The translations under genes were made by a program, and so were the position numbers. DNA of 64,000 nucleotides from Amphiscolops sp. MND2022 (lineage: Eukaryota): assembly GCA_964187785.1 (NCBI GenBank), contig OZ076409.1, positions 58,840,001-58,904,000 on the forward strand. The letters are read 5' to 3'. The notes below the pieces were generated by a model. It had not been told where the DNA came from. It was given only the letters and a program-made list of their open reading frames with translations, and did no database searches. Positions 8,641 through 53,267 of the stretch are shown piece after piece; position 1 is the first letter of the stretch, and each line of letters starts with the position of its first letter.

Positions 8641-8734
8641 TGGGGGAAGATTCAATGCGGGGTGAAATGATGCGGGATGAAATGAATGTGGGGTGAAATG
8701 ATGTTGGTTGAATGAATGTGGGGTGAAATGAACG
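8641..8734. repeat. Short tandem repeat, ~15-16 bp unit (TGGGGTGAAATGAATG-like)
   Basis: About six degenerate units visible directly. Confidence 0.8.
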
Positions 8735-10003: not shown

Positions 10004-10890
10004 CCCAGTGTAAAAACTCTTGGATCTCTTGATAAGAATCTTGGATATTCTTGGATTTTTTGGTAAGAATCTTGTCAAGACTTACCAAGAAATCCAAGAA
10101 TTTGCAAGATCTTGCAAGATCGTGCCAAGAAATTCAAGAAATCCCAAGATTCTTATCAAGAGATTCAAGAGAAACCAAGAATAGGCAAGAAAATGCAAGA
10201 GGGTTCAAGATTCCCGTTTAGAACCTCAGTCATCATAAAGCCTTCAGAAGTCTCGGCAAATGAGCTAAAGTAATGACCCAAAAGGATTGAAAACAATATC
10301 CAATTGGTATGTATCAGGGATCTAAAAAATACCTGTTTCAGACCCAAAATTTATCATGAAAGATCTAAAAATGCAGCTGAAGTTGGTAAATCATTGTGTT
10401 TTGCACTCACAATTGCAAATTAAGATCTGAATTAAGCAAAATAATGAGCTAAATGGATTGGAAACAAGATTCAATAATTGGTATACATCAAGGATGTAAA
10501 AATACAAGTTTCAGACCCAAAATTGATCTTGAAAGATCCAAAACGATGCAGATGAAGTTGGAAAATTATTGAATTCTGCTTTCTCACAATTGGTCTTCGA
10601 AATTGGCCGTAAATTGGCTGACAAAAGGGTAAATTTTATTGATTTTTCCATAACATGGCCCAAAATTACTGTAAACAGGCCTAATTCAACAATTTGTGAA
10701 ATCGCACTAAATTTTGAACTAATCGAAAATTTCACGTCCCGGATTTCTTGGCAAGATTCTTGTCGAAAAATTCAAGAATTTTTGGAAAAAGTAAGACTTT
10801 CCAAGATCTTATCAAGAAATTCAAGAGGTAGCAGGATTTTGTAGGAAAATTCAAGATCTTGGTAAGAAATCCAAGGGTTTTTACACTGGG
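10004..10890. mobile_element. CCC...GGG MITE with 2-bp TSD (AG)
   Basis: TIR CCCAGTGTAAAAAC / GTTTTTACACTGGG; CTTGG/CAAGA subterminal arrays; AG on both flanks; diverged internal ~180-bp direct repeat (about 10250-10430 vs 10430-10610). Confidence 0.75.
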
Positions 10891-11039
10891 AGCTCTCTTT
10901 TTCAGAGTTTCAGAAAAATGCCTCTTGCAGAAATAAACGATAAGACTGAACGTGCATTCGACAAATATTTTCAGAAGCAGAAGTGTCTCGAACTTCATTC
11001 CTATTTTTTGTCGGACAGAAAATAAAATCACGCCTTTTT

Positions 11040-13792: not shown

Positions 13793-13814
13793 TATCACTA
13801 TTTTTTTTCGGTTT

Positions 13815-16565
13815 TATCACTATATTTCGGTTCAGTTTACGAATGCGATATATCCCATTTTCAAAAAGAAAAGCATGCTTTTTCGTAGTCGCTGAAAAGT
13901 TAGAAAAGAACAGGGAATTCAGAGGACAATCATCTTTGAAATTCATCAAAATTTGTTGAATTTTGATTTTTTTTCTCAAAATTTAATTAGAATGTATTAT
14001 CAAAGGTTTTTAAACCTGTAAAATGGACTGTTTCTCTATGATTTCCTGGGTTTCAGTGGAACTTTGATTTGTTTATATGGGGCTTTGATTTTAAATGGGG
14101 CTTATTCATTCATGCACCTGCTCGGCGGTAGCCCTGCCAGTGTCGACTGTTTCAGTTGGCCAGCCAAGACTAAAAAAACTGAATTTTCCGAGGTTCTGAT
14201 ATGGATTTTGATGGACCTCGGATGTAATTTCACATTGATTTTCAACGAATCGTTCGTTTTTATAGGACTTTTTAGGCAGCTGCTCTGGTGGAACAAGACC
14301 CAAATTGTTTTTCTGATAGAGTAAGATCTAAAATCACTGTATTTTGCTGAATTAGGGCCGAAAATTGTGTTTGTGATAGAATATCTAAAAACTTTGTATT
14401 TTGATGGAATAAGATCTAAACCACTGTATTTTGATGGAATAAGATCTAAAATCAGTGTATTTTGGTGGAAAAAGGCTATAATGATTTTCCTGATAGAATA
14501 AGATATAAAACCATGTATTTTGATGGAATTAGTCCCAAAATCACACTGGAAGGATACCATTTTGGGATTGTTACTGATTTATTACCAGTGGAGCCATCGA
14601 TGACCAGTGGTGTATTTATCAATTTCCACCGGTGACCACCGATGGAACATTCGGTGACCACCGGTGGCCACCGCAAAAGCTGCGGATGCCATCTCAGTGG
14701 TCCACAGGTGGAACTCCTGTGGATCCTCGATGACCACCAGTGGACTGCGATTGGTTTCCAACTCGGGTAATTCCCTCTCTTTTGCTAAAATATAAAAACA
14801 TTTATAGATTTATAGATTTGTAAGTTTATAACATGTTTCCTTGCAAGATCCCTAAATTTTCTAGCTTCAAAAAATTACTCTGCAAGCATCCACGAGACTG
14901 AAAATGAAGGCTCGACTAGGTTTAGTAATTTCAAGCTTCTCGACGTATCTAGAGAAATATCTCTCGAACCTCTGTTTTAAACGAAACTAGTCGGCTGTTA
15001 AATTTGACTACTTGACTCCTTTATCTCACGTTTCAACATTTTCTTAGAAAAAAAACGCTTTTGTTTGAAGATTTAATATGCGGACACTAAAACGGACAAT
15101 TCGAACCGGACTTCGTGAAAGTGTTGTTTTGACTGCTTGTCTTTCAGTTCGCCTGTATTCGGAAACATCGGATGTCTTTATATGGCTTGTATCTTCCAAG
15201 CTAGCTATAAATTTGCCTTTAGTCGGTACTTTCTTATTAGTGTTCGCGGATCTCACTGTCCCTAGGGTGATCTCGTCAGATGACAGATCTCACACTGAGT
15301 GATCCATTTGTACAGACCTTATTTGATCTAATATCTAGAAAACATCCAACGAAACCGATTTGAAGAATTCTCATCTTTACGTTCATTTCAAAAACGCATG
15401 AAATCAAAAGGAGACCTTTTGATTTGTTTTTCAAAACTGCAACATTTTAAATGCTTTTTTGATTAGCCAAACATCTTAGTTAGCAAACGCTTTTCTTCTG
15501 AAATCAAATACCTCTTTTGTCATTTTTTGGCATGGGAATTTTTACAGCTTTTCTAAAACAAACCCGATGTTTCAATGTTTGAAATGTAACAAAGAGGCCT
15601 CAAAATTAACTTTTTCATAAAAAAGAACGTGTAAATGGTTTTTCGTAGAATTTTTGAAAATTTTAGAGTATATGTTACACAATCATAGAGATAAGAGACA
15701 TTTTTTAGCAAACATACTACTTGGGAGACTCTTAATGCAAAAATGAAAAATTCCCAAAATAATTACTAAATCGAAACGGAAAGTGTCAACTTGTTTGACG
15801 GTGATAGTTTCATGATTTTTTTTCTGTCGATTTTTGGAATGCTTCATGGGTATGAGAAACCACAAACTTCAACAACAAAAAATAGTTCACATAGACTACC
15901 TAGTCGGATTTTCATGACCTTGAATAATTCCCTTCGAAACCACAATTCCCATCCGATATTCGCTTGACCACTTGGCTACAACTATCGTACTGTCTCCCGA
16001 AGGTTGGGGGCTTAGACAAGTTGAACTGATCTTTCGTCGTCCACCCTGTGGAAATGGGAGAAACAAATGTTCCTCTTTGTTTTCAATATACGATTGTCAG
16101 ATGCAACTGGTTCGCCATTTTTGAATATTCCGTGACTTTGAGTATGCTCAAAGCTCGAAAAAGTAGGGATAAAATTAACTGAACGTGTCAAAAGTTCCTT
16201 TTAGGTTTTTTCTTGTAATTTTTAAAAACATTTTTGGACGTTTTTCTTGCTGTGACTATACCCTAAATGAGACTGCTTGAACTTTTTACATGCTGCAGGC
16301 CTGCATGCAGGGTAAGTTTTTATAAAACCTAGAAAATTCGGTAAGCATCCTGTGTTAAATTTTGTAGATTTACACTGCATTCTCCACTACTGCAATTAAA
16401 GTTGAAAGTATTTCCCCTTTCTTTACTGACATGATCACGTTTGTGAATTCCCAAAGAACCCAAGAGCAAATAACATAAAAAACAAAATTAGTTTCAAATA
16501 ACAAAAATGAAACGAGTTTCACTAAACATGAAAATAAAATTGTTTACGAGAAAGTTTTACTGGTC
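13815..16565 (+). repeat. Tandem segmental duplication, copy 2
   Basis: As copy 1, with roughly ten scattered substitutions/indels (e.g. GAATAAG/GAGTAAG, CGTTAAA/CGTGAAA, GACCGTG/GACGGTG). Confidence 0.95.
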
Positions 16566-16725
16566 AAAATTTTTCATAATTAGGAAAATTCACTGAAAAA
16601 AGTATAAAGATTACAAATAAAATTTCGCGAGTTCGATTGTTTAACCGGGTATTCATTCGGTTCTATTTTTATGTTGTTTGAAACTAATTTTGTTTTTATG
16701 TTATTTGCTCCTATGTTATTTGGTA
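16446..16725. mobile_element. MITE with long imperfect TIRs
   Basis: GAGCAAATAACATAAAAAACAAAATTAGTTTCAAA is inverted to TTTGAAACTAATTTTGTTTTTATGTTATTTGCTC. Only the left arm is present in duplication copy 1 (13673-13792). Confidence 0.65.
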
Positions 16726-17368
16726 CGTAATCGATCACGTTGTATTCCCATATTAATTTCTCAACTACTCATCCGATTTAATCACCGCTGCTCAAACAGG
16801 ACGCTAAAAATGACCTTGTTTGTTGTTTACATTGTGAATGAAGTTAATTTGCATTAAAATGGCGGCAAACTTGTTGACGTCTCAGATGCATTTAAAATTA
16901 GGACTGATGCATAACAAAACCTGCCGAACTTCACGGCTTGAAATTGCCACCAAAACGTTGATGATTCTTTCAAGCAGCTTGATAAAATTGATGACAACAG
17001 GAAAATAAGTATTAACGGATTAGAGTTTCCGTAAGAGATTTAGAAAATCATTGAAAAAGTTGCTGGCAACTTTAAAGAACTTATAAAAAGCTCAAGCAAG
17101 TTCAACAAGGGTACCAAATGCTCAATAATGGAACCAATAGTCACTTAGCATACTTCTAGTTTTCAAATAAAAAGCGATAAAATGTACCTAAAAATTCAAC
17201 GTTCTCTAATTTTTAAATTTTTGAAACTGCAGTTTTTGATTATTAGGCGGGGCGTTGACTTGCCTCTTTCTCGGCTTTTTGCGATTTTGTGATGAGCTCG
17301 AAGCTTCTAATGTAACGCCATCGCCTACCGGGAAAAGCTCAAGACGTGGCCATCGATCACTGTGGTCA

Positions 17369-17373
<5 letters not shown>

Positions 17374-17404
<31 letters not shown>
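17374..17404. repeat. (AG)n microsatellite
   Basis: About 15 AG units. Confidence 0.95.
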
Positions 17405-17406
<2 letters not shown>

Positions 17407-18264
17407 TTAAAAAGAGATGTTTTGTTTTGATTTTTGGTTGATTTAATTTTTTCTTTCATTCAATTGCAAGTATTCTTTTTTGTGAAAATTTAAAACGTTT
17501 TTCGTCAAAATATATTGAAGAAAAAGATGTCTTGAAATGAGATTCAACTTTTATTTTTTGAATTGTCCTTCAATCGAAAATTCTATTTCTCAATTAGGGA
17601 GACAAGTTTGACCGAACTTTGATGCTCTGAGTACCCATTTATAGAATTTGAAAGTTAAACAAGTCAATCCGTCTTGGTATCAACAGCTTTTGTACATTAA
17701 TGGCCGAACTTTCTATTTGTAGCAGTACATGTAGTTTAATTTTTGTCATAAATCAATCTTTAAATAAATTTTCCTTAATTTTTGTTTATAGCTTGTTGGA
17801 ATTCTAATTTCACGCTTCATTTTGAAGATGTTTTGAACTATGGGTGAATACGGATTGAAGAAAATTCATGAAATGATTAAACATTTTCTTGACAATTTTC
17901 GACTTAACGAGAGCACTTTAAATGCTGTGAAGAATGAGAATTAATTAACTTAGAATTGCTATCATGAAGTAATTCTAAGCTCGGTGTATGCCAGGGCGAT
18001 ATTGGCTTGAGTTTCTTGGTTCACTTCAATGAAAGCTGTCGATCAAATTGGCTTCAAGATGTGTGAAAAATTCTCGACTTGAGATTTGAATTAGTGCGCA
18101 TTATTTTTTTTGTACACAATTTTACAGGTCAAAATACAGCTGCTAATTTTCTGTTTGAATGTTTCTTCAAATCTTATGAGTACCATAATGGAACTGTTGT
18201 ACAGTGATATACCGTGTCCGATTTTATCCGGTAAACAGTCAATCAAAGAACTAAAAGGTCACTA

Positions 18265-18480
18265 CCCTGGTTGACAATAAATACAATTCTTGCAAGATTC
18301 TTGCAAGATCTTTACAAAAAATATAAATCTTGCAAGATTCTGGCAGAAAATACATTTCTTGCAAGAACCTGACAAGAAATTTCTTGCAAGAATACTTTTT
18401 CTGTCAGATTCTTGCAAGAAATACATCAAACCAAGAGCAAACTTTTTTGTCAAAAATTCACTAAAAATGACCAACAGGGG
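18265..18480. mobile_element. Small CTTGCAAG-type MITE (CCCTGGTTGA ... CCAACAGGG)
   Basis: CCC/GGG ends and TCTTGCAAGA arrays. Related fragments end TCAACAGGG (~272), TCAACTAGGG (19447) and TCAACCTGGG (32900). Confidence 0.65.
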
Positions 18481-19885
18481 CATCGGAGAATTTCTTGACC
18501 ATTTTCGCCTCTAGGAAGAGACAAACACAGACACAATCACAGCCGAAAGATTCCTTTCTTGGATAAATGGCGCTTTAGGAGCAAATGAACCCAGAAGTTA
18601 CAGTTACTAAGTTTTCATACAGTTAACTTTTCCAAGAAAAAAGCACGGCTCCTGCAGTGACTAGTTTTTTTTCCAGTTCCTTTTGATCGGTGCACTAAAA
18701 AACAAAAAAAAACAATGAAACTCACAAAACTCGGAGTTAGGTGAAAATTGCAAAATTCACCGCCACCAAGATTTCGAAAAAGTACCAACGAACCTGTTTT
18801 TGACCACTTTTTCAAAAAATACAAGGGAAGGCTGATTTATACCGTGGAAACTCTCAATCTCAACTCAATTACAGTTAGCCCAATCCGGTGCATGTTGGCT
18901 TTTATAGCTCTTGCAAGATATGTATTTTTTCAGCTAGGAAACCTTCAAATCGACAAGAAAATTAGAATCATTTCCGCAAGTGTTTATCTGCAGTTTCTAA
19001 TGTCTATTGATTGTGTTGTGGGTAAAAATCGAGCCATTTTCTGTTAATTGATTTACTATGTTATAAGTTATTGAATTTCAATTTTGAGTTTACCTATAGC
19101 AATTATTGCTTCAAAGTATAATAGTGTAATGGCTCTCTTTCTTTTTCGTTTGACATTCCAAAAAATTGCCATACGGTTGTCTTTCTGTCAAACTAGAATT
19201 CAAAGGTACATGGCTGAAGCATGGTACGAGGACTTTTTGGAACATGCTGAACAACAATGTAGAAATTGCATATCTTGCAAGAATCTTGCAAGAGAAATGT
19301 TTGTTTTGCAAGCATCTTGCATGCTGAAGTTTCATCTTGCAGGAATCTTCCAAGTTGAGAAACCTGCCAGAAAAATGCATTACCTTGCAAGATCTTGCAA
19401 GACATCTTGCGAAATTCTTGCAAGGTTTGCATTTTTTTCAACTAGGGTACCAACTAGAACTTAAAGATTCTATTTTCTCTTTATATACATATTTGTGAAC
19501 TTCGTGTAGCGTATTAGATTTAGCTCAGAAATATTTGCTCCAATTTGTGTCACATTATTCAATTGGTAAAATACCGATCTTAAAAAAAATCGCTCCTTTC
19601 TCCATAACCAATTCGAATTAGAACCGGAACTATTTTGGATCGCGGAAAATGTTTACTTTGAATATGTTGCTAATTAAGGTTGATCAGAACATTCAGCAAG
19701 CTGATTAAGGGCGACTAGAACATTCAGGAAGCTCATCAGCAAGAAGAGAGTTAGGTGTGATTCAGTATAGTTCACTAAAAACCCCATTCATTTTCTTTTT
19801 CAAATAAAATCAAAAGAACCGAGTTACAGTCGAAACAATGAAGGTTGAAGAGTCTTTTTCTGGGATCATCCTGGGATGTATCATT

Positions 19886-19975
19886 ATCTCAGCAAAGGAA
19901 ATTTTAACCTAGATTTTTTCACTGTAACTCGAGTTACAGTGGAAAAATCTAGGTTAAAATTTCCTTTATTGAGAT
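19886..19975. repeat. 90-bp loop-less palindrome centred on CTC|GAG
   Basis: Base-by-base pairing gives 42 of 45 Watson-Crick pairs. Confidence 0.9.
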
Positions 19976-20100
19976 CACGGTGATCGGATCTTTTCCCAAT
20001 CTCTTGAAATAAATTGTAATTATTACTAAAAACAGCTAAATTTACCTCGTTTTTGTGAAACAAGAAGGAACGCCGATGAGACAAACAAATGGAAATTTTA

Positions 20101-20463
20101 AAACAGGCCAGGAACGGCCCAAGTCGGCGCCATATCTAAGGCTCAAAAATAGCAAAAGGACTTCAAAATGTCTAAGTATTGGAGAATTGGGGACCCTTTA
20201 TTGAAAAAATTTGAAAAAAAGTCTCACAGAGCCGAAAATACTCTAAGGGAGTACCCTTCGGCCCCGTAGCGTTTCTAAGATGATGTAAAATTGCTTCGCA
20301 AGCTTTTGAAAAAGTAAAAGTACTTCGCAAGCAAGAATTCATGACTCATGAAAATTGTAAGAGAAGTGGACCATTAAGAGTGAGATTGTCAGCTGGAAAA
20401 AAACTACCCTCTGCAATAGTCGGGCTGGCTTTTTTCCTCAAGAGAAAAAGCGCCGACTAAAAA
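20101..20463 (-). mobile_element. Helentron/DINE-1-like element, second subfamily
   Basis: AAACAGGCC-AGGAAC-GGCC hairpin plus AAGTCGGCGC at one end; AGTCGGGC...AGCGCCGACTAAAAA at the other. Confidence 0.7.
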
Positions 20464-20504
20464 TTTGCATTTTCTGCTCTAACTGAATTTGCAACGCTAT
20501 AGTT

Positions 20505-21051
20505 TGTAACTGCTTGAACTTTTTACATGTTTTTGTAGGTTACCAAGCAAATTTTCCATGATTTTATAAAATTCTCAAAGAAACCTCCATGAATTAAAAC
20601 TTTACTGATTCGATTTAATTTTATCAAGCTGCCTATAAGATGCATGCTAAATTTGGCGGCAATTCTGCGCCGCAAAGTTTTGCAGGTTTCATAAAGACGC
20701 CGTTCTAATTTTGAAAGCAGCTGAGACCTTCATCAATTTTACCACGGTTTCAATGCGAATAATTTTCAGTCACTTTATAATTTTCAAAGTAGCGTCATAT
20801 TCAGCGTGCTATTTGACTAATGGTGTTTACATAAGGTACTTACTTGAGAAACTTGAGAAACCGCGTGAAAACAAGGTGATCGCGGTGGTGAAGAAGTGGA
20901 AATGTTTTCAGTTTTAACTCAAATAGTGAAAGCTGCATAGTAATACTACAAAATCTTTCCATGCATGGTCCCTGAATTTTCCATGTTTTATAAAAAATTA
21001 GCCGGCATTTTTTGAAGGTGCCTGTAAAACTTCGCGGCAACTTTGACTAGG
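20505..21051 (+). mobile_element. MITE copy, inverted relative to 27759-28308
   Basis: Reverse-complement similarity throughout (e.g. AAAGTAGCGTCATATTCAGCGTGCTATTTGACTAA); ends TTGACTAGGG. Confidence 0.75.
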
Positions 21052-22688
21052 GTATGAAGCTCGAGAGTCGTTAATAAACTAAAAACTTGCACAAAAATTT
21101 CGCCACTTTTTGGGCAATCTTACACTTTCAAAGTTTTTGCAAAAAAATTAACCAACTTCTTTGTTGTTGAGTTCTGCGGATACTCACACCACAAAAATCC
21201 GATCTTACAAATCGATTGCATGGAACAGTAGGTAATTCCGAAGGAAAAAGTTCGATTCCCCTTTTCCACGGGACGCTGGTCGAATATTCAAGTCTGTTTT
21301 TTCTGAAACGGCCCCTTTTTGGTTATCCCCAAAGCAAGCTACCATTCCATGACTACAATCAAGTAGTCAACGATCGTAGGCTTGAGGTTGAACAAAAATT
21401 GAATGGTGTTTATGATGTTTATAACGCAACAATAGTGAACTGAAAAAAATTTGATAGAGTCCGCGCCAACACAGATCTAATACCCTAACAACTACATCAT
21501 GATCCCCAGGAACTAAGTCTTTGAACTTCTTTTTTGGTTCGTTTCACGCATTTTCCAGAAAAAAAACTCCTTGACAAATGTAGGCCGTGTAGCTCAATGT
21601 CTCGGCTATCAACTTCTGCATCGTTTAATCCAAAGAAGAAACATCATGAAAATTGACTGACATGCATTGAACAATCGGAGAAAATGGGCACCCTTTGGTT
21701 CCTTTCACGCATTCCTTTCGATGAAAACTGAAGGTTCAAACAAAAAAATTATGCTTTTATTCTCAAGTTTCCATTTTTGAACTCTGGTGTTGCTCATCCA
21801 AAGACTTTATTCGAAATTAGCTAAGAACAACGGGTTAAAAAATATTTAGCTATTTTTAGACATTGTTCAGCATTTTAAAAAATATAACCATCGATAAAAT
21901 TCTCTCTTTTGCTGAAGAAATGATTTTGTCTTCGAAGTTCTTGAAAAACTCATGCCCAACAAAACGTTCGAAAAGTGTGAAAATATATGAAACTCGCCGA
22001 AGTTTGGTAACGTTTTTTCTATATGCATTGAGGACTTTTCTGAAACAAAAAATTTTGCTTTCTCTTTTCGATAGCGTTTTCCGTCATTAAACTGGGTAGA
22101 CGTTCAAATGCACAAAGATTTTCAAAAAGTTTAAATTGCCAGTTCATTTGAAATGTTCAGTCAATTAGTTGTTATTTCGTGGCGTTTGCAACAAAAGAAC
22201 AAGTAGTTCACTTCAGTGGACGTTCATTCCCACAAAAACAATCAACGAGTGAATAGAATTTGCTCGAAACCGTCAAAAATAGAAATTTTGAGAAATTTCG
22301 TTTTTTGATGGACATTGGAGTCTTTTAAAGACGAGTTACCGTATCTTTTCATTCAAAAAGTATGCAAAGTAATTTTTTGTGATAAAACACTGTGAATGAT
22401 AAAATTCATTGGACTACAATTTAAGGAACCAATCTTAGTTGATTCAATGTCAACTTTCTAATAGTGAAAAAATATTGGGACCTTGTGAGTTGCGACCCCA
22501 CAATCCGTTGCACTCTGATTGATTTGGTACTCAGCTGTAAACCCCTGAGCTACCAAGTCCACACTACTAAGAGTCTTACTTACTCTCTTGAACTTGAACT
22601 TCCGTATATAAACTTTCTGTTGATAACATTTTACAAAAATGCATGAAACTGTCAAAACTTGCTGAAAAAGTGCGTTCATACTTTAGAC

Positions 22689-22832
22689 ATTTTGAGGTCC
22701 ACTGAAGTTGAGACACACTTGGACTTTTACTTTAGAAAACGAAGCAGATTATTAGTTTTGTAGAAGCAGATTATTTTGAGGTCCACTGAAGTTGAGACAC
22801 ACTTGGACTTTTACTTTACAAAACGAAGCAGA
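22689..22832 (+). repeat. 60-bp direct duplication with a short templated spacer
   Basis: ATTTTGAGGTCCACTGAAG...AAACGAAGCAGA occurs at 22689-22748 and 22773-22832. Confidence 0.9.
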
Positions 22833-25800
22833 CTCTGGATCTTCTAACCCACGAAAATGTTCAAAACAGTTCAAGGAGTGCATGACGAATGTCAAAATTT
22901 GAAGTTTTTGCAATTTTGCAGTCATTTTGAGGCACGTTTCAAACGATACTTTTCAAATTTGTCTTTCAAAAGCGGTTTGGATAGCTCAGCGTTTGTTGGT
23001 TGAACAAGACACATATATATTCTAATCCTCGGAAACCAAAAATTGTATAGAAATGACATAAACATGCTTCAAAAAATCAGGTTCTTAGAACTTTCCCGCT
23101 TTTTGGGGTCACTCAATTCTTTACAAAACTGCAGTTATGTTATGGAATTACCCCAGATAGCGAGAAAAAACTGGACATGTCCAATCATCTTGTTTTTGTA
23201 GCGATTGCCTTCTCTGGCAAAAGATCTTTCATAATTTGGGCCAGACTTGGATAATTGCAAAGTGAAGGAAAAAAACGGTTTGAGCTAGTACTTTCCCCAT
23301 ATGGATAATAGCTACTTAATATTCCATTCCACTGATTGTACAGAATTCATATTTTAAATACAACTGCAACCTGTGACAGCCCCAGCTGAGCTGTGAATTC
23401 TGCTATAACAAAAACCCAGTCTACAGAGAATAAACTGGGAAATAGAGAAAAGAAGAAACAACTACTAAAATAACTGATGCACAACTGTTTTAATCTTCAT
23501 GCCAGCAAACAATCTAAAACAACGGAGCTAAAATTATGTAATAATCAAAAGGGATTTTATATCAATATTCATATAATTACATAAAAGTATCTACATACAT
23601 ACCAACAGTGTACGAAACAATGTTAAGCTATTGTGCAATTTTTAGTATTAATACAGTGCTATATAATTAATAAAAATTGAATCAGAACGCCTAGCAAGCG
23701 GTCGAGATATTTAATAGTGGAACTGCGGCCTGGCAGCCGCCTCAAATTCAAGAAGCGAGATGTCGGCTTGGCAAGCGGCCTGAGATTGAAATGCGCTACA
23801 CGGCGTTATTCAATGAAAGAAATGCTATTGTTGAGTACATGTAAATGTGTTAATGCCTTTAATAATAGATGGAATGATGCTACACATGTAATTGTTTGAA
23901 CAACCAAATATTTGGGCCGCTTTTTTGAATTGTCATATACCGCGGCCCAGGAGGCGGCGTGAAATGGAAATTTATTAAAATTCATTGCAGAAATGGAAAA
24001 CGCTAGTTTTATCAATACTTTCTATTTACTGAATGAATCTGGAGCTCATTACTCGCGATTATGAACGATATTTGTTGATTGAATGTATTGTATAATACCA
24101 TTTTCATGTAAATTACGACGGTTATTTGTCAAATGAGCATGGTCCACGGCCTGGGCCTAAGTTTTGCTTCCAAATGGCTCAGTGCATAATAATGTCATCT
24201 AAAACCTTTTCCCCGGACCAATTGCCATTTGATTGTGCTAAATTTCAACCTGAGCAGTATTTCTAACGTGATTTTTTCTCATACCGTTGTGACAGTGGTC
24301 TCTTTCCGTGTGAAATTCTATTCAATTTCGCAAACGTCCCGGACTGCAGCCTGGGACCGGGATTTTTCATTTTTTCACTCAATCAGCGCTGTAGATGCTT
24401 TAGAAGTGAAATTGCAAGCTAATTTGCCGTTTTTGTTGATACAATCGTTAATTTGCGCAGTAGATTTAATGTTGCTAAATTAGTTCGAGAAACATTTTGT
24501 AAACCTTGAGTGTCATTTTCCAATTTGCATTTTTTTCTTTCAGCTGTAAATTGATGAATCATCCTGAATTTTCACTGCCAAGTTCAGCTTGGGCGTCATG
24601 AAAAGGCGGGAATTGGGAGTGAAGGGAAGCGGAGTCGCAACCCAGACAGGAAGTGGACGCGTGCTTTCCTCGGAAAGCATGAACAAACTGAGGGTCTGAG
24701 TTCGACAAAGCTGAACCGAGCTTCCGGTTTCCCTGCCTTGGAAGGTTGCCGGGCTGAACGAGGCGTGAAAGGTGCACGTATTTTCCCCCGCTTTTGCGAG
24801 CGGAAAAGTATAAACAACATGAGAATTGGAATTGAATTTCAGTTATTAATTACGTTGTTGTAAAACTTTCGCCATTCGTTCTGATAATAAAACTTTGAAA
24901 GCTTCATTTTCTAATTCGCAGAATCTTTAAGCCGATTTTCTCTAACTATTTTGAAATTCCAAACTCAAAATGCCCGAAAGGACATCTAAAAGAAAAGCGA
25001 GAAGGGACTCTCCCACAAGTTCAATAGGCGAACCTGAAGCCGCAAGCATGAGAGAGATTTTTCCCAAATGTCAGAGAAAATTGAGAAATCCATTGTAAGA
25101 GAATAAAAGATACGGAAACAGGACAAAAGGTGGTTCTCAAAAAGGTCGAGAACCTATCTTCCAAAATAGACTCTCTGTCTGGTAAAACGCTTGGAAATAC
25201 ATTTTCTGAAACAAACGAGGTCAATACCGAAAATATAGCATCCGCATCTAGACCGATTGAGATAAACGAGTTGTCGCAAGACGAGGGTCAACACACAACC
25301 AGTGCAAATCAATTGTCTTGAAACTTTTAACAAGATCTTGCATTCTTCTACAAACAAAGTCTCGTTACGTCTTGAAGTCTTGGATATAATCCTAAATTCT
25401 CTTGGAATTCCTTGCCAAAATTCATTTCCCTCAGAATAAATGCGAACGTACTATAGTTGAAACAGCTGACACTGTAACGAAAAGTTAGAAACAATCACAG
25501 CAAAGATAGTTTGAACTTCTAGAGGAGTTATCTTACGACTGTTTTGAGACTCACAATGGCGAAAGTGGTGAAATTTTACTATGTGTGTAGTGAAGATCAT
25601 ACTATATAAATATCCCAAACAGTTCAAAAAATGCATCTTGAAACCGATCATGATAGACATCAATTCTTGTGAAAAAACCCACTTTTTTCAAAGTCGAACA
25701 GCTTGATCTTCTAACTACGTTTCACTCTGAAACATGATGATGAATCTGTTGAGATAATATTCGATTCAGAAATTTGAAATGACTAACTTTCAAAAAATAT

Positions 25801-27758
25801 TCGAACCAAGTCAAAAAGCTGGGATCGATATTATGCCTGTCTGCATCACAAAACTAACCTGCGTGCCGTTGCAATACGTTTCATGTACAGAAATTTTGTA
25901 CCTTTTCAAGGCCAAATTCAACCGAAGTGAGATGGAATTTATCAATCGGGAGTTCGATTTAAACCAGCGTGAAAATTCAGAACCATTTAGTCAAACTAAA
26001 AACGATCTAATGAAAGGCGCGTGAAATTGTTCTGAGTGAAATTGAACTAAACAAACTCGAATTGATTTGAACCAACACAGACAATGCGTTTCTAACCCAA
26101 CACTCAAAAAATTTCAATGACATACATTAAAAGGTTCGACAATTTAATGCGATAATCTTTTACTCCGAAATACTCTCCGTTTCTAAACATGGCCGAAATG
26201 TGATTAGTTGTTGGAAATAAACTATCAAAAATTCTATCACATCCCGAAAAGATGAGTTCATTTTCCCTACAGGAGAGATATTTAATGATAGAGCACTGCC
26301 TGCAGCAGTTTAGATTTGACACTATTAACGACATCATTTCTTCTACTGCATGTGACGTAACTATCTAAAAATGCTAATCCTAGTATAACCACACGACAAC
26401 GTACCTTCTCCAGCTTGTATTGGCCGAGAAGAAATTGACGGATAAACGTCTTGATTAAATCCAGTTTACTTTATCTAATTCCAATTGAGTTTCTGCACTT
26501 GTTTAAATCAAAATTACTTCTGTTTAATTCCATTTTACAGCTGTTTAATTCCACCTACTTGATTAAATTCAAAGTAACTTTGACTAATTCCATCTTACTT
26601 TTGACAAATTGAGGCTTGAAATGGTACTATTTGCTCTCTAGTCCTAATTCCGGAATGCTTTTCCATATTTGTCAGTAAAGTACGTTTGTTTCATGAGTGC
26701 TTTGGACACGCTTTATACGCCAACGAATACAAGATAATTTTTTCCTATGGATCTTTACTTGATTTAGCTTCGAAAACGGAAAGTCGTTCGACAAATTCAA
26801 TGATTCAAATTCATTGAACGATACTTTTTTCATCTTGAATGAATCCAACATTTGCTCGTCAAATGTTCAACCGTTGACTTGATCGCTATTTTCAATCAAG
26901 AACCAAATTAACATCTTTCTCTTTTTCTTGAGACTACAGTTTTAGTTTGTCTTGAAAAAAGATTGCTCTAACGCCATAAATGATGCATTTATGATACCGT
27001 CATTTTATATCAAAGTAACATGAAACTAATTAGCTGTGATGTGTCGCTTGACGAACTGATAAACGTGGATTTTTTAAATATCATTTTCGGAATGTTCAAT
27101 CTCAATTACTAGTTTATACGTGAAAGCCTGTCAGCAGTTTTGAAAAGAAATTGAGCATTATTGTATTGAATTAGAGGTGAAATGGTTGTAATAAATCGTT
27201 ACCGTTGTTTAGCTCAGAGTGTTCAAACTAGCAAAATAGAATACATTGGGAAATGTTTAATGACAGAACAACTAATGACGTAATGTTTAATGCGAGAAAA
27301 ACCAATGTATTTAAATAGCCAATTTTTACATGTGCGAGATAGTTCCGAACAACAGTCATGTAAGTCTCGAAAAAAGAGCAAGTAGGAAACAATTTCTGGA
27401 AGAGTTCAATGTTTTACTTTAACCCTAATTAACCTAGTGGTACTTTAAAGCAGCCTACCGTTTTTTTTTCAATTTTTGTTTCCTTTTGCCAGCAGCCCAT
27501 ATTCTCTACCACATTTTTGTTTCAACCGTTCATTGGTACTTAGATTAATTTGAAAGCTACAAGCATTAGAAAAAGTGAATATGTCTCCAAGTCTGGGAAA
27601 TGTTTTCTTTTGCACAAAAAATGGTTTAACTTTTCCAAAATTCAGTTTTTGGGGAAATCCAGTTTTCTCAAAAGTCTTTGACCAATAGAAAAAAGCAACC
27701 CCTTACCCTTTCACGACAAGGCCTTGTGCAACAAACCCCAATATTATCCTGTTGTTAC

Positions 27759-28308
27759 CCCTAGTCGAACCTGCCGGAAAGTTTACCATGTTTCATCCGT
27801 GCATCCATTCTAAATTTGTGATAAACATCGAAAATACTGAAAGCACTCATGGAGAAATTTTGTAGGATTACAATGCAGCTTCCACTAACTCAAAAAAAAC
27901 TGATAACAATTCCACTTCTTCACCGCCGCGATCACTTTGTTTTCACCGCGTAAGTTTCTCAAGTAAGTACATTATGTAATCACTGTTAGTCAAATAGCAC
28001 GCTGAATATGACGCTACTTTGAAACTTATAAAGTGACTGAAGTTTAATTGCATTGAAATCGCGGTAAAACTGACGAAGGTCTCAGCTGCTTTTGAACCTA
28101 GAACGGCGCCTTTAATGAAAACTGTAATATTTCGCGGCTCTGAATTGGCGCCAAATTTAGGATGCATCTTTTAGGCAGCATGATAAAATTCAATTGAATC
28201 AGTGAAATATAATGCATGGAAGTCTCCTTGAGAATTTTAAAGAATCATGAAAAATTAGCTTGGTAACCTACAAAAACTTGTAAAAAGTTCAAGCAGTTTC
28301 AATTAGGG
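27759..28308 (-). mobile_element. CCC...GGG MITE with 2-bp TSD (AC)
   Basis: AC|CCCTAGTCGAA ... TTCAATTAGGG|AC. Confidence 0.75.
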
Positions 28309-28653
28309 ACTACGAGCCCCCGCGTAGCGTGCCGCACGAAGTGTGGAACTGTCGCGAAGCGGCGGTACCTGAAAAAGAAACTAATATTCTGGAGAAGGGG
28401 GTGCACGGCGACAGGGGCTCACATAAGCAAAATGAAAGCCCAATACGAGACCTTTCAAACGCGCTATAGTTCGTTTCTCTGGTACGCGTAGTTGTGGAGA
28501 TATTAAATTTCTGAATTTTTTTTCAAAATGTTTTTGAAAATTTTCAAAAACGCCCAGGTCAATTAGGGTTATATTGTACTAGCTCAAAAGTTTGTTTTTT
28601 TTCTCAAACTTTGCAAGAAGATAAAGCCAGAGTTTATTAATCAGCCACAACTA

Positions 28654-29331
28654 CAGTACTGTGATTAAGAAAACGTCCCCCGGGGCAATTTTAGGTTCGA
28701 TTTTCTCGATATCTGTTGAGAATTTTGAAAAACATCAGAAATAAAAGTTTCTTAGAATTTCATCTAGTTTGTATTAGTGTTTTTAATTTTTCTGGGACAA
28801 AAATTGAGAAAGTTACTAATAGCTGATTTTGAGCAAATTTGGGACTTTTTCCCGTTTTTCCAAATTTTGACCGTTTTATCCACATTTTTTTTCGCCAATT
28901 TTATGCTCAAATAACTCCCACAAATCTACTGATATTGTGGATATTTTTCGATTTTAAAAATTATCAACCGTTTTCCAAATATCATGCTTGAAAGGTAAAA
29001 TTTCGTCGTTTACATGTATTAAGATAGGAAATGAACGTTTCGCCGCAAAAAACTGCGATTATTGTTTCATTCAGAACGTTTGTGAAACAAAAAATATATC
29101 ATTGATATCATTGAAGTCTATACAATCTGCAGAGTTCGATGAATTTAAAATTTTCAAAAAAGTATTTCGAAAACCTGCCCAAAACTTGGAAAATTGCAGA
29201 AGTGTTCTTTCTGCGCCTGAGATTTCACTTGATCCGCCAATCAGAATTGAAAGTGAGAGCAAATAAGCAATTCTAATTGGTTGATAACGACGCTCAGCGC
29301 ATAGGGGGATGATTTCTTAATCACAGGACTG
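28654..29331. mobile_element. Tc1/mariner-type MITE
   Basis: TA|CAGTACTGTGATTAAGAAA ... TTTCTTAATCACAGGACTG|TG: 19-bp TIR with one mismatch. Confidence 0.7.
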
Positions 29332-29647
29332 TGTATCTCAGCATTCACTAATACAGCAGATGAATATTAGTAGTGCAAAGCAGAACGCTTGTTTCCATTT
29401 GATTCGGCATTGCGATGCTGATTTGTTGTCTAACTCACCGAAATGAAAACTAAAGGAATTTCCAGTACCGATAAAAACTGTCCTAAATCTGTGGAACTTC
29501 AAGGCTTTTGAACTTCCGTTGGGACCTTCCTATAAAAACTGCAAATTTGATCTGTTGGAGGTTGATCGTACCACAAACGCGGTGCCTCCTTCGAATTTTA
29601 TTCTTTAGAAAAAACAAAAGGTTTTTGTTATTTGATTTTTTTTGCAG

Positions 29648-29854
29648 GCAAAATCATTCTGTACTCGATCCATCAGCCTTCCTCGGAAGTGGTCCAGATG
29701 TTCGACCAGATATGTCTTCTGTCTGAAGGAAAGTGTGTCTTCTTCGGCAAAGCAGATTCAGCAGTCAACTTCTTCAGTAATTTAGGTCACAAGTGTCCTC
29801 AGTACTCAAACCCCGTGGACTTCTTCCTAACTGTGATCAACACAGATTTCGAAG
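29648..29854 (+). CDS. ABCG half-transporter exon: end of NBD with H-loop (GKIILYSIHQPSSEVVQMFDQICLLSEG...CPQYSNPVDFFL)
   Basis: Typical ABCG SIHQP and CP.+.NP.DF motifs; TTTGCAG| acceptor; GAAG|GTGCTT donor. Confidence 0.92.
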
Positions 29855-30236
29855 GTGCTTTTGATCAATGTTTTAAATAATCCATGAATATGTGGTAAAA
29901 GCAGTTTTCGGAATATGACCGAATTATAACAAACTCACTTTTCACGGATAAATTCCGCCCTAAATTACTTTTATCGAAAACATTATTAATTAAGGCTCGA
30001 GCATAGCTAATAAACTTGAGTTAACAAGTTTTCGACAATTGTACAAAACTTGGATGAAAGGCAAAAAATTCAATGAAGACCACCATTTTGATACGGTATG
30101 ATAAGAACCTCGTTTTCTCGCTGTAGATTTTTGGGGAAAATAATGAAATACATGGGCCGAAAACCGTAGCAAAATTCTGCTTTTTACCTCATGAATTTTT
30201 TCCAGACAAATCGAAATTCTAACTTTGTTTCTCCAG

Positions 30237-30417
30237 GTCATGGTGACGTAGAAGCCATAGTGAACAAATTCTCGGAAGGTCAAGAACTGAAAAGTATTAA
30301 AAGTTCAGTTGATGGTTGCAAAAAATCTGCCAACAAAGATGAAAAAGTGCCAAAGAAGTACCAGGCTAATTGGATCGTCCAGTTTCTTTATCTCACCAAA
30401 CGAAACATGATCAACAG
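30237..30417 (+). CDS. ABCG exon: linker and start of TMD (KYQANWIVQFLYLTKRNMIN)
   Basis: CTCCAG| acceptor is in phase with the previous exon; ABCG 'W..QF..L..R' motif; donor is non-canonical CAG|GGGCGT. Confidence 0.85.
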
Positions 30418-30786
30418 GGGCGTTCAAAATGGTTTCAAAATAGTTCGATTGTAAAACCAAATGAAAATTAGTGGTTGAAATATATCGATTTTTCTAAAAT
30501 TTTATGGTGCAACATGATGGGGAAAATGATGGAATATGAAATTTTGAATTTTTTATTCCGGATTTATTAGACCAAACGGATCGTTCAGTCCTACCTGGTG
30601 AGCTGTTCAGGAAATGGACATTGTTTGCTAAATTCCGACAATTCCAAAGCAAAAACTAGACGATACTTTGTGAAAAAGTTTTTACCATCATTGATGACAG
30701 CTTTGAACTTTTGTATGGTAAGTGATGACAACGAAAAGTTTTTGTTAGAAATTACTGAATGTTTTTCTTGAACTCCCCCATTACAG

Positions 30787-30890
30787 TGCCATAAACCCTG
30801 GCATCTACTGGGTGAGGATTGTCATGTATTTCATGTTGTGCATCATGATGGGAACAATGTATCTGCGCACGAATGATGACATCACTCCAG
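30787..30890 (+). CDS. ABCG exon: TM1 (AINPGIYWVRIVMYFMLCIMMGTMYLRTNDDITP)
   Basis: TTACAG| acceptor; hydrophobic helix; donor is non-canonical CAG|GGATGA. Confidence 0.88.
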
Positions 30891-31129
30891 GGATGATAAA
30901 AATCAAACTTCTTCACGAGATTTTCCGGAGCCCGTTTCATAAGGATTCCACGCAGTTACATGCATGGAATCATATGTTCAACACATTCCCATTTTATTTC
31001 CTACATGCAACCATGGCATCAATGTTTTAAATGCGTTTCCGCACACGGAACCCTGTGGTTCCATACAACGTCAAAAAAACAACGGAATGGAAAAATCAAC
31101 AAACTCTCCCGGGAACGATTGGTGGCCGG

Positions 31130-31521
31130 ATAGTTTACAAGGTTGATTCAGTCTTAACAAGTGAAAAGGCTTGTTCAGAACACTGCGTAAGTGCGTAAGT
31201 GGGGTTGGTCTTAAGCTTCGGATCCTTGAGAAGCACCCGAACGAAAGGTCAGCCCTTAACAATGAATACTTGTAGGGGGCGGTTGTATAAATGGTCCACT
31301 TTTGGTATCATCAAATACGATTAGAATGACTAATGTAAACGCCCTGTTTAGAGCTCAAAAAGCCCAAAATCTTTCAAATTTGCTAAGGCGAAGTGGACCT
31401 TTTGGTCTGGCTTAGATTTAAGAACATGAAAACCCTTTCTTTTATCCCAGTGCAGGATTCGAACCCCACTACCTTCTGCTTGCGAAGCACGTATCTTATT
31501 CCCAACGCCACGTGTCAGGAC
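31130..31521 (-). mobile_element. tRNA-derived SINE in an ABCG intron
   Basis: Minus-strand head has an A-box-like TGGCGTTGGG, an anticodon-arm-like TGCTTCGCAAGCA and a perfect B-box GGTTCGAATCC (31455-31465), then ~300 bp of non-tRNA body. The 3' boundary is approximate. Confidence 0.6.
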
Positions 31522-31689
31522 TTTGCCTCGAAAGTCTGTAAAAAGTAAATTCAGTGTACGCTCTGTGGTCTGGAGAAAAAAACTAGTCAAGGTAATATTC
31601 GAGAGAGCATTTGCTTCAAATAAGCCAACTAACAATTCCTTTTGAAATGTAACAGAATACATTTTACCATCCCTGTGCATCCCCTGCAG

Positions 31690-31846
31690 ATATGCTGGTG
31701 CCACTGTTATTCTACTGCCAGGCATTTCTGGTGTTCATGGCCGTGGCCGTTCTCCCTTTCTTCATGATGCAGGAACCGGTCTTTATTAGGGAGAGGTCCA
31801 ATGGACTCATAGACGTCTTTCCATTCGTCGTCTCCAACTTTATCAG
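31690..31846 (+). CDS. ABCG exon: TM2 and coupling helix (MLVPLLFYCQAFLVFMAVAVLPFF...VFIRERSNG...VSNFI)
   Basis: CTGCAG| acceptor; ABC2_membrane 'F.RER..G' motif; donor is non-canonical CAG|GAATGA. Confidence 0.9.
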
Positions 31847-32221
31847 GAATGAGAGAAACATTATCAGGGAAATTAGAGAAGCCAGTTGGCACATACTGTT
31901 TTTTTGAAAAAAGTTTGTTTTTCTATTACAAAACCGTATTTTTTCAGATACTGTTTGGTTGTATAAATTCAATATACTGAACGTAAAATAGGTGCTCTCA
32001 ACATTTTGGTTGACAAGATTTGCAGGTTTTACAATGTAGTAGCTAAAAATAGTCAAACACATGGATAATGGAATTGTGGAAAATTACGGAAATATTACTG
32101 TTTTTTGGAAAATTTTAAATTCAAAAGTTAAAGCGATCTAAAAGCAGCATGTCTCAAAAGTACCAAACATTTTATCCAAAGGGTTTCTCCAAATCAATCT
32201 CTCATCCTTCGGTATCTCCAG

Positions 32222-32547
32222 CGCACTACCTGGAATTTTTTTGATCGCCATTATGTCGACAACGTTGGTAGTTTTCATGGCGGATCTCAATAACTTTTGG
32301 GGGTTTTTCATCAATCTATTTCTATCCCTGGTCTGTGCCGAATCCCTCATGCACGTTCTAAGCGCCTCCACCCCTCATTACATTGTCGCAATCGCGCTGG
32401 GAGCCGGGTTTTTCGGCATGTTCATGTTAGCCGAGGGTTTCATGGTTCCAAAGGAAACTATTCCCGCATGGTGGATCTGGGCGTATTACTTAGCATTCCA
32501 CACTTACTCATTCGAAAGCTTCATGTACAACCAGTTCAAAGACGAAG
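32222..32547 (+). CDS. ABCG exon: TM3-TM5 (ALPGIFLIA...GFMVPKETIPAWWIWAYYLAFHTYSFESFMYNQF)
   Basis: CTCCAG| acceptor; ABCG 'GF....IP.WW.W.YY....Y.FE...N.F' motif; GAAG|GTATGA donor. Confidence 0.92.
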
Positions 32548-33770
32548 GTATGAGTCCTGGGTGAAAAAATGCAACCTGGATCTTGTAAGATAAAAGTTTG
32601 CATAAAAAGCCTTGAAGAGGTTTCATTTTTTTGTGGGATTTTTGTATGGCAATCATTTACTTGGTAAACCATTACTTTTGGCGCAATTCTTGAAAGAATA
32701 TGCTACAAAGTAATGCAATCGTTGCAAGATCTTTCAAGCGAAAGTGCGAAAGTTTATCTGTAAAGATACTGCAAAGAATGTATTATACAGAAGCATCTTG
32801 CAAAAGTCTTTTAAGGTTTCCCAATAAACTTATTACCTTGAAATATCTTGACTAATTGTCGTATGATCTTTGCAAGGATGGCATTTTTTCTCAACCTGGG
32901 CTAAAATGATGACCATTTATGTTCGGTATTTGTTTAGTATAGAGGTTCAATCGTTAAAAACGTTAAGGAGACTTCGTTGGTACTTAAAGTACCATGGATG
33001 TAACAGCAAAAAATCATTAAAAGCTTTCACTTCTTTTGTTGCATTGATGAAGCGTGATCAAAAAGTTTTGAGGAAACTTGCACAGACGATAGACGGGGAA
33101 AGTTTTAATAAGTGTCTGTGAAAAAAATGAATCAATTGCTATGCCAAATAAAAACAGAACCAGTCAAATTCGATTTTTCAATAATTTGCGTGAATAATGG
33201 CGTCTTCCGATACGACTATGGTTTGTTCCAGGTTTTGAAATTGGTCATTTTGGGGAAAAATTAAGAATCTGTTGGAAATATCAAAACAGCTCTAGAGACA
33301 GTATTGGTAACTTAGTATTGGTAACAACCATATCAATTTCTTTCATTCTTTATCAACTAGGATGGCGTTGAAATAAGAAACATAGTGCCACTTCAGCATG
33401 CCAATTCAAGCCCTGAAAAGACAGATTGAAAAATAGTGAGTTGTCATTTTAAGTGAATTATTATAACCTCGGTAGTTCAAAATGTGGTATCGGGTGTCTA
33501 GAATCAATGAATAAATAGGAACTATAATATAACCGAAGGGTAAGTAACGCAATTACTTTCATTTTCTATGACAGCTCGTAAAAGTTCAAAGCACACTGCC
33601 AAGAGCTACGACCAACCACATTGAAGTGACTAATCATCCTGCTCTAAAATCCTGCTGCACTAATACCACTCGTTTTTCAAGTTATTACCAAATAAACTAA
33701 ACTAGACGCAAGTTATATCTAATGAATAACTTGACAAATGGTCATCATTTATTGCAATAAATTCATGAAG

Positions 33771-33922
33771 ACGTGCAAGGAACCGCTATCATGCAGAGAT
33801 ATGACATAGACATGGATTCAGACAAATTTACCCGCGACATGGGAATACTTTGTGGGTACGCTTTCCTGCTACAAGTCGTTTTCTTTTTCATCGTGTACTT
33901 TCTTCATACCGGTCGTCACTGA
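33771..33922 (+). CDS. ABCG terminal exon: TM6 and stop (VQGTAIMQRYDIDMD...DMGILCGYAFLLQVVFFFIVYFLHTGRH*)
   Basis: Hydrophobic final helix ending in TGA at 33920-33922. The phase-1 AAG| acceptor at 33770 is the best in-frame choice, but the exact start is less certain. Confidence 0.82.
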
Positions 33923-41084: not shown

Positions 41085-41094
41085 GCCTAATAAA

Positions 41095-42388: not shown

Positions 42389-42444
42389 CTTTGGAGTTGA
42401 TGTACTTGTTCTTCAGTAACTCTATGGTTACACTGACTGCACCA

Positions 42445-53262: not shown

Positions 53263-53267
53263 ACTTA

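What the first reader, a model, noticed from the sequence alone, without database searches (positions are those of the whole stretch)
29648..33922. ABCG transporter of apparently oomycete/protist type in an animal-like genome: HGT candidate
Seen: motifs NPGIYWVRIVMY, LVPLLFYCQAFLVFMAVAVLPFF, LPGIFLIA, PHYIVAIALGAGFFGMFML.EGFMVP, YYLAFHTYSFESF, a very short Cys-free TM5-TM6 loop and a C-terminal HTGRH. From memory only, with no search run, these match oomycete (Phytophthora-type) half-size ABCGs related to plant WBC/ABCG11 much better than animal White/ABCG1/ABCG2/ABCG5/8. The surrounding repeat landscape looks metazoan. Inference: an old lateral acquisition that has gained host-style introns, or a patchily retained ancient subfamily.
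Basis: inference. Interest (0 to 1): 0.72.

Follow-up and report, generated by a model that had tools for sequence, protein, structure and literature searches.

The report
Protist-type transporter with transposon-born introns
An intact membrane-pump gene on a chromosome of what is likely an acoel worm groups with oomycete and dinoflagellate pumps, not with animal ABCG2, so it was likely taken from a protist long ago and then copied, and four of its nine predicted introns start with GG or GA and carry inverted end repeats of the transposons that likely created them.

Summary
Observation confirmed and extended. The window holds exons 5-10 of an intact 581-aa half-size ABCG; exons 1-4 lie upstream. 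Named orthologues come from the acoels Symsagittifera and Convolutriloba (70-72%), so the host is likely an acoel. The acoel copies form one clade (100/99) inside a 100/99 clade of oomycetes, dinoflagellates and Perkinsus. Union with animal ABCG2 (p=0.0009) or two plant-type rows (p=0.003) is rejected. The host's own ABCG2 is only 32-36% identical to other animals' ABCG2, while this gene is 52-55% identical to oomycete and oomycete-type proteins. Old transfer from a SAR protist, then expansion, is likeliest (0.7). The gene is not nested in oomycetes, the donor is unresolved, and patchy retention remains (0.22).

Free copies have 8-bp target duplications; another copy sits in a LARGE1-like gene. 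Prp8 has 0 of 29 such donors and U1 is unchanged. No RNA run was listed. The scan noted MITE-born introns before in two other genomes, but not this gene.

The parts
1..29647 (+). Window part of intron 4 (32,729 nt, GT-AG). Exons 1-4 lie upstream of the window at G000:C1:58827969-58828076, 58830898-58831047, 58835990-58836200 and 58836769-58836918; intron 1 (2,821 nt) has a GG donor, an 11/14 terminal inverted repeat and a 6/8 target-duplication remnant
29648..29854 (+). Exon 5: H-switch (IHQP) and NPVDF motif of the nucleotide-binding domain
30237..30417 (+). Exon 6: linker between the nucleotide-binding and membrane domains
30418..30786 (+). Intron 6, predicted GG-AG, after exonic CAG; inverted end repeat 10/14, ending 6 nt before the acceptor
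30787..30890 (+). Exon 7: TM1 (NPGIYWVRIVMY)
30891..31689 (+). Intron 7, predicted GG-AG; a MITE-like element spans 30888-31675 with 13/14 inverted ends, the first three bases of which form the end of exon 7
31690..31846 (+). Exon 8: TM2 and start of TM3
31847..32221 (+). Intron 8, predicted GA-AG, after exonic CAG; inverted end repeat 10/14, ending 11 nt before the acceptor (weakest case, shuffle p=0.09)
32222..32547 (+). Exon 9: TM3-TM5 and start of the Cys-free outer loop
33771..33922 (+). Exon 10: TM6, HTGRH, stop

Best explanation
This is an intact half-size ABCG gene that groups with oomycete, dinoflagellate and Perkinsus ABCGs, was likely transferred from a SAR-type protist into an ancestor of convolutid acoels, likely works as a dimeric ATP-driven exporter of hydrophobic compounds, and has four predicted GG/GA-donor introns that likely arose from hAT-type transposons. 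Shown: open frame, all catalytic motifs, chromosomal position, orthologues in two named acoels, tree position, inverted repeats. Inferred order of events: (1) transfer; (2) gain of introns 2-4, shared with paralogues, and duplication before the host lineage split from Convolutriloba; (3) later gain of introns 1 and 5-9 in the host lineage. Inferred intron mechanism: an element whose ends begin CAG-GG or CAG-GA inserts just upstream of an exonic CAG and duplicates 8 bp. Its own first CAG replaces the host's at the exon end, bases 4-5 of the repeat become the donor, and the original CAG behind the duplicated 8 bp becomes the acceptor. The protein is restored exactly, and an exonic AG before the odd donor is obligatory. 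I favour removal by the ordinary spliceosome helped by pairing of the two ends (about 0.55 among intron mechanisms). Substrate most likely sterols, lipids or algal metabolites met in food or symbionts (about 0.4; family knowledge, untested).
For: Gap-free 581-aa model, 93.8% to P0001, which comes from a 2,090-nt contig and so is probably a spliced transcript of a relative. Orthologues XP_063726695 (Symsagittifera) and XP_075247721/2 (Convolutriloba) on 55-76 Mb contigs. No other named animal among the 120 listed of 166 hits or the 120 listed of 5,337 hits. Ten acoel rows form a 100/99 clade inside a 100/99 clade of 37 rows whose named members are oomycetes, dinoflagellates, Perkinsus and one Chara protein, itself in a 100/99 clade with Fibrocapsa and Mucochytrium; same under LG+C20 (SH-aLRT 100, 99, 96). 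AU rejects union with animal ABCG2 (p=0.00087) and with two plant-type rows (p=0.0034). Like-for-like identity from residue 182: 51.5-55.3% to three named oomycetes and one unnamed oomycete-type JGI protein, 23% to animal ABCG2, against 32-36% for the host's own ABCG2 with named animals; path lengths 1.42 versus 2.12. Introns: inverted ends 11, 10, 13, 10 of 14 in the four GG/GA introns against 5-7 in the five GT introns and at most 8 at the 29 chosen Prp8 junctions. End motif found 262 times against 41 for the control. Of 14 paired elements, 8 have target duplications of 7-8 of 8 and 4 give an open frame across the predicted splice, one in a LARGE1-like gene (downstream exon E=5e-12). 6 of 25 hAT transposase loci end in ACATCCCTA or a near copy. 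Single-frame ENA calls in the Symsagittifera and Convolutriloba clusters run through the sites of introns 1 and 5-9.
Against: Most deep rows are unnamed, so the surrounding grade is not shown to be SAR only. White, ABCG1, ABCG5/8, fungi and unicellular holozoans were not identified in the trees. Clustering at 50% could hide animal members. Two diverged host paralogues fell near the root on a long branch in the 121-row tree and were left out later. Codon GC3 (0.54) matches host ABCG2 (0.52) and says nothing on origin. The target duplication is recognisable in only 1 of the 4 introns (6/8; others 1-3/8), intron 8's repeat is weak against shuffles (p=0.09), and the interiors of the intron-forming elements do not match the free MITE families. 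Splice junctions are predicted from protein collinearity, not read from RNA.
Confidence: 0.7

Rival explanations
1. Patchy retention: an ancient eukaryotic ABCG subfamily kept by SAR protists and acoels and lost or unsampled in other animals and opisthokonts.
For: No nesting inside a named donor clade. ABCG families turn over fast (family knowledge). Many deep rows are unnamed.
Against: Needs loss in all other sampled animals, and a slower rate than ABCG2 over a much older split: 52-55% to oomycete-type proteins against 32-36% for host ABCG2 among animals. No other named animal in the 240 listed rows. No intron position shared with the host's ABCG2 copies at residues 156 and 207.
Confidence: 0.22
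2. Transfer happened, but from an unsampled non-SAR protist, or both acoels and some SAR groups received the gene from a third lineage.
For: The clade already shows odd placements: Perkinsus with oomycetes (99/97) and a Chara protein among oomycetes. The acoel clade is the first branch under LG+C20.
Against: Every named non-acoel row of the two inner clades but Chara is a stramenopile or alveolate.
Confidence: 0.06
3. Contamination: symbiont or parasite DNA scaffolded into the assembly.
For: Many convolutid acoels carry algae (recalled; Tetraselmis in C. macropyga per the listing).
Against: On a 104-Mb contig among host repeats. Relatives on at least seven large contigs. Orthologues and paralogue pairs shared with two other acoel assemblies. 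Its introns carry a repeat found across the host chromosomes.
Confidence: 0.02
4. For the introns only: the GG/GA introns are removed by inverted-repeat-triggered SOS splicing or a hybrid of SOS and spliceosome, or the donors are base-calling errors or decayed GT sites in a dying gene.
For: SOS splicing is triggered by paired inverted ends and hybrids with normal splice sites were seen (10.1101/2025.02.14.638102, abstract and passages). In the four paired elements that read as introns the ends stay 13-14/14 while the target duplication is 2-4/8, as if pairing were kept. U1 is unchanged.
Against: SOS excision is described as multi-site and leaving indels, whereas the model here is gap-free against P0001 and every case ends at an AG. 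Errors or decay are unlikely: the odd bases are positions 4-5 of a repeat found 262 times and the exons have no lesion.
Confidence: 0.3

Closest known systems
Half-size ABCGs of oomycetes (Phytophthora, Pythium, Saprolegnia), dinoflagellates (Oxyrrhis, Dinophysis) and Perkinsus
   Same: Domain order, motifs, Cys-free outer loop, HTG(R/K) end; 45-51% identity over the full length; one 100/99 clade.
   Different: Sits in an animal chromosome with nine introns; acoel copies form their own clade and are not nested in oomycetes. Several oomycete-type relatives are single-frame calls on metagenome contigs, so probably intronless (inference).
Animal ABCG2 (and human ABCG1, ABCG5, ABCG8)
   Same: Same half-transporter plan; phmmer bits 237, 227, 166, 201 for P0001.
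   Different: Best protist-type representative scores 546 bits; 26% identity; union with ABCG2 rejected; the host has separate true ABCG2 genes.
Plant half-size ABCGs (Macadamia 'ABCG1-like' P0240; Arabidopsis ABCG16 and ABCG25)
   Same: Same family; 194-238 bits to the Arabidopsis chains.
   Different: 35% identity and rejected as sister. That P0240 stands for the WBC11 group is recalled, not tested.
GA/GG-donor introns of the copepod Eurytemora affinis (PMC5714493, whole text read)
   Same: Recent, lineage-specific introns; obligatory exonic AG; unchanged U1 5' end.
   Different: That paper names no origin and finds about 12% of introns genome-wide, mostly GA. Here they are mostly GG, absent from 29 Prp8 junctions, and trace to transposon ends.
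Introners and MITE-derived introns (PMC9860276, PMC12130899, PMC11282704; passages read), including Fritillaria borealis
   Same: Transposon with inverted ends and target duplication supplies one splice site and uses the target for the other; non-canonical borders.
   Different: 8-bp hAT-type duplication; donor inside the repeat at bases 4-5; interiors are not a young shared family. No acoel name in the main text searched or in 12 of 14 supplement files of PMC12130899.

Membership tests
Half-size ABCG transporter | One nucleotide-binding domain before one membrane domain | tested here: met
Half-size ABCG transporter | Walker A, Q-loop, signature, Walker B, D-loop, H-switch, NPxDF intact | tested here: met
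   positions 51, 96, 158, 179, 186, 214, 261; motif definitions recalled
Half-size ABCG transporter | Six membrane helices | tested here: met
   six hydrophobic clusters between residues 342 and 580; no structure model was obtained
Half-size ABCG transporter | ATP-driven export as a dimer | not testable with these tools
   needs assay
Metazoan ABCG2 | Groups with animal ABCG2 | tested here: not met
   AU p=0.00087; 23-26% identity
Metazoan White/ABCG1/ABCG5/ABCG8 | Groups with these clades | tested here: inconclusive
   not in the trees; only low scores to human chains
Plant WBC/ABCG11 group | Groups with plant half-size ABCGs | tested here: not met
   AU p=0.0034 with two rows only, one named
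Oomycete half-size ABCG clade | Nested among oomycete sequences | tested here: not met
   outside the 99/97 oomycete-Perkinsus clade
SAR-type half-size ABCG clade | Inside a supported clade with oomycetes, dinoflagellates, Perkinsus | tested here: met
   100/99, 99 under LG+C20
Horizontally acquired gene | Integrated in host chromosome, with introns, shared by related species | tested here: met
Horizontally acquired gene | Nested in an identified donor clade | tested here: inconclusive
   sister unresolved
Horizontally acquired gene | Absent from other animals and close outgroups | tested here: inconclusive
   none among listed named hits, but lists are cut at 120 and many rows are unnamed
hAT-type MITE | Short terminal inverted repeats with 8-bp target duplication | tested here: met
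   8 of 14 paired elements have 7-8/8; decayed in the intronic ones; the 8-bp rule for hAT is recalled
hAT-type MITE | A hAT transposase with matching ends in the genome | tested here: inconclusive
   150 dimerisation-domain matches; 6 of 25 loci end in the shared 8-bp core, none in the full 14-mer within two mismatches
Introner | Intron absent at the same site in relatives | tested here: met
   single-frame ENA calls and paralogue exons run through the sites; indirect
Introner | Many introns sharing interior sequence | tested here: not met
   intron-forming elements share ends only; introns 1 and 7 share one 143-nt piece at 69%
Introner | Precise removal from mRNA | not testable with these tools

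The most novel reading that the evidence does not exclude
The ancestor of photosymbiotic convolutid acoels took this exporter from a dinoflagellate symbiont or prey and expanded it to handle algal lipids or metabolites, and this host lineage has turned hAT transposon ends into fixed GG/GA donors that are read through pairing of the two ends with an unchanged U1, a stable form of transposon-excision splicing that makes new introns in native genes too.
Probability: 0.15. Interest if true: 0.88.

Novelty: new variant of a known kind. Interest (0 to 1): 0.68.

Why it matters
Protist-to-animal transfer of a eukaryotic transporter, kept and multiplied across a family of algae-hosting worms, is uncommon and gives a concrete candidate for how hosts manage algal compounds. 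The introns give a simple sequence-level route to GG/GA donors: it accounts for the obligatory exonic AG that the Eurytemora paper reported without an origin, and it predicts where to look in that copepod. It also offers fixed, protein-restoring test cases for whether paired transposon ends help splicing. In practice, gene predictors that demand GT/GC will break such genes in this genome.

Tried and rejected
No RNA holder was listed for 29600-34000, so no reads were laid. A structure job had not finished at five collections (79, 85, 88, 90, 92); no model was seen. The Atlas search named only generic ABCG clusters. The metagenome scan returned only 29-30% matches to the ATPase domain and was not used. 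A search with intron 7 found only internal repeat pieces, no whole-element family. The pattern 'end repeat + 8 N + CAG' gave 2 matches, duplicates with no 5' partner in 15 kb. The exon upstream of the LARGE1-like intron had no significant PDB or Pfam match; its likeness to LARGE1 is recalled. The frames beside L127 and L129 had no Pfam match, so their being genes is inferred from open frames. Shifted GT donors 4 nt downstream of introns 1 and 6 were considered by eye and give no in-frame acceptor. A changed U1 was rejected: 22 of 23 copies keep the A-C that pairs with donor +2/+1. Genome-wide 12% as in Eurytemora was not supported by Prp8 (0 of 29). GC3 was uninformative. Paper searches found no report of this transfer or of such introns in acoels; the library lacks most subscription papers, bioRxiv supplements were closed, and 2 of 14 supplement files of PMC12130899 were not searched.
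Full report
Observation. The exon 9 frame found a 581-aa unnamed Logan protein, P0001, at 93%. With it as guide, four more exons were located upstream of the window. The ten-exon model gives 581 aa, no internal stop, and 545 of 581 identities to P0001 without a gap. The window holds residues 207-581. Walker A, Q-loop, signature, Walker B, D-loop, H-switch and NPVDF are intact, six hydrophobic clusters follow, and the loop before TM6 has no Cys. It is an intact half-size ABCG.

Host. The genome is 1.07 Gb with large contigs; the gene is on the 104-Mb C1. The closest named proteins are from Symsagittifera roscoffensis and Convolutriloba macropyga, at 70% and 72%. The host is therefore likely another acoel (inference). 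It has ordinary animal ABCG2 genes and a LARGE1-like gene. Relatives of the gene lie on at least seven large contigs. Two of them pair with separate Convolutriloba genes, so duplication preceded that split. Contamination is very unlikely.

Affinity. In (120 of 166 hits listed; 120 of 5,337 listed) the only named animals are these acoels. The other named rows are oomycetes, dinoflagellates, Perkinsus, Fibrocapsa, Mucochytrium and one Chara protein. A FastTree of 121 rows used hand-picked hits, the representatives of 500-880 aa (full-size and most short ones left out), animal ABCG2s and pieced host paralogues. An IQ-TREE of 65 of these rows gives ten acoel rows at 100/99 inside a 100/99 clade with dinoflagellates, oomycetes and Perkinsus, inside a further 100/99 clade with Fibrocapsa and Mucochytrium. 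A 38-row LG+C20 tree agrees. AU tests on the 38 rows reject union with animal ABCG2 (p=0.00087) and with two plant-type rows (p=0.0034), but allow a dinoflagellate (0.57) or oomycete/Perkinsus (0.50) sister. The internal control: from residue 182 on, the gene is 51.5-55.3% identical to three named oomycetes and one unnamed oomycete-type protein, and 48-52% to dinoflagellates, while the host's own ABCG2 is 32-36% identical to named animal ABCG2s. Human ABCG1, 2, 5, 8 and Arabidopsis ABCG16, 25 score 166-238 bits against 546 for the best representative.

Against transfer. The acoel clade is not nested in any named donor group. Most deep rows are unnamed. White, ABCG1, ABCG5/8 and unicellular holozoans are not identified in the trees. 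Two very diverged host paralogues fell near the root and were dropped afterwards; they share intron sites with the family, so I read this as long-branch pull, untested. I put old transfer from a SAR protist at 0.7, retention at 0.22.

Function. By family knowledge a half-size ABCG dimerises and exports hydrophobic molecules using ATP. This copy has the shortest path to the protist rows among the acoel copies, so it likely keeps the incoming role. Export of sterols, lipids or algal metabolites is my best guess (0.4). Nothing here tests substrate or expression.

Introns. Five of nine are GT-AG. Introns 1, 6 and 7 need GG and intron 8 GA, each after an exonic CAG. Counting from that CAG, the first 14 bases match the reverse complement of a stretch near the 3' end at 11, 10, 13 and 10 positions, ending 11, 6, 14 and 11 nt before the acceptor. 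The GT introns reach 5-7. Chance estimates are 0-0.0075 against 2,000 random window stretches and 0-0.092 against 2,000 shuffles. Eleven equals an 8-bp duplication plus CAG; intron 1 keeps 6 of 8, the others 1-3 of 8. The 14-nt end motif occurs 262 times in the genome against 41 for the reversed control. I examined the first 20 loci and 7 further pairs picked by eye from the 100 listed matches. Fourteen distinct paired elements resulted; 8 loci had no partner within 1.5 kb and one was the 3' end of intron 1. Eight of the 14 have duplications of 7-8 of 8. Four give an open frame of at least 30 codons on both sides of a CAG|GG...AG splice, and these have duplications of only 2-4 of 8. One is intron 7, one lies in the LARGE1-like gene, and two are in unidentified frames. 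hAT transposases are abundant and 6 of 25 loci end in the same 8-bp core. Among 15 locus/query pairs of paralogues, L017 has two more GG donors with repeats of 11 and 12 of 14, and L016 has a GT and a GC donor made from a target G plus the first base of such a repeat; the rest are GT/GC or unresolved. Single-frame ENA calls in the two named acoels' clusters cross the sites of introns 1 and 5-9, while introns 2-4 are shared with paralogues.

Controls that limit the claim. Prp8 gave 27 GT and 2 GC donors at 29 of 31 junctions in the fetched region, chosen by eye with the recalled protein, and no repeat above 8; 4 of 9 versus 0 of 29 gives p=0.0017. So the trait belongs to recently gained introns and is not shown to be common. 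The interiors of the intron-forming elements do not match the free MITE families, so this is not a young introner family in the strict sense. U1 keeps its pairing bases in 22 of 23 copies. No junction was read from RNA.

Known cases. Eurytemora has about 12% GA/GG donors with obligatory exonic AG, recent origin and normal U1, with no origin named (PMC5714493, whole text). Transposon-born introns are known and are rare in animals (PMC9860276, PMC12130899, PMC11282704, passages). SOS splicing removes inverted-repeat elements imprecisely and can pair with normal sites (10.1101/2025.02.14.638102, abstract and passages); I reached it through an earlier scan note. PMC8359288 (passages) treats mainly full-size oomycete ABCGs. 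Searches for this transfer or for such introns in acoels found none, within a library that lacks most subscription papers.

Verdict. Real, intact gene. The transposon-born GG/GA introns are a second, separate finding. Both are variants of known kinds; interest 0.68.

Noticed in passing
window 36800-42412 and about 48000-55600, minus strand: Decayed Gypsy-type LTR retrotransposon pieces (RT, RNase H, integrase zinc domain by Pfam); they cause the strong AT skew.
   Followed up: partly
window 58385-58771 +: BED zinc-finger frame, possibly the start of a hAT transposase.
   Followed up: no
window 31455-31603: A dispersed repeat inside intron 7 with many 70-89% copies; looks tRNA-derived by eye.
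   Followed up: no
window about 11300-15800: The same frames recur 2,773 nt apart (hits at 11652 and 14425), a tandem duplication inside intron 4.
   Followed up: no
L133 (G000:C3:8669100-8677000, minus): A LARGE1-like gene whose predicted GG-donor intron has perfect 14-bp inverted ends and holds a nested LTR retrotransposon with a 1,136-codon pol frame.
   Followed up: partly
L034-L056: At least 23 U1 snRNA-like copies in several diverged types; three read ACUAAC instead of ACUUAC at the 5' end and three have a replaced 5' end.
   Followed up: partly
P0007; P0428, P0429: A Chara braunii protein nests among oomycete ABCGs, and Perkinsus groups with oomycetes rather than dinoflagellates: further transfers or contamination.
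   Followed up: no
L071-L079 (G000:C4:84110001-84193000): Prp8 exons have GC3 0.86 against 0.52-0.57 for three ABCG genes, and the gene has over 30 introns with GT-rich acceptors.
   Followed up: no
L016:3401-4549, L017: Paralogue introns in which the same kind of transposon end yields GT, GC or GG donors depending on where the AG comes from.
   Followed up: partly
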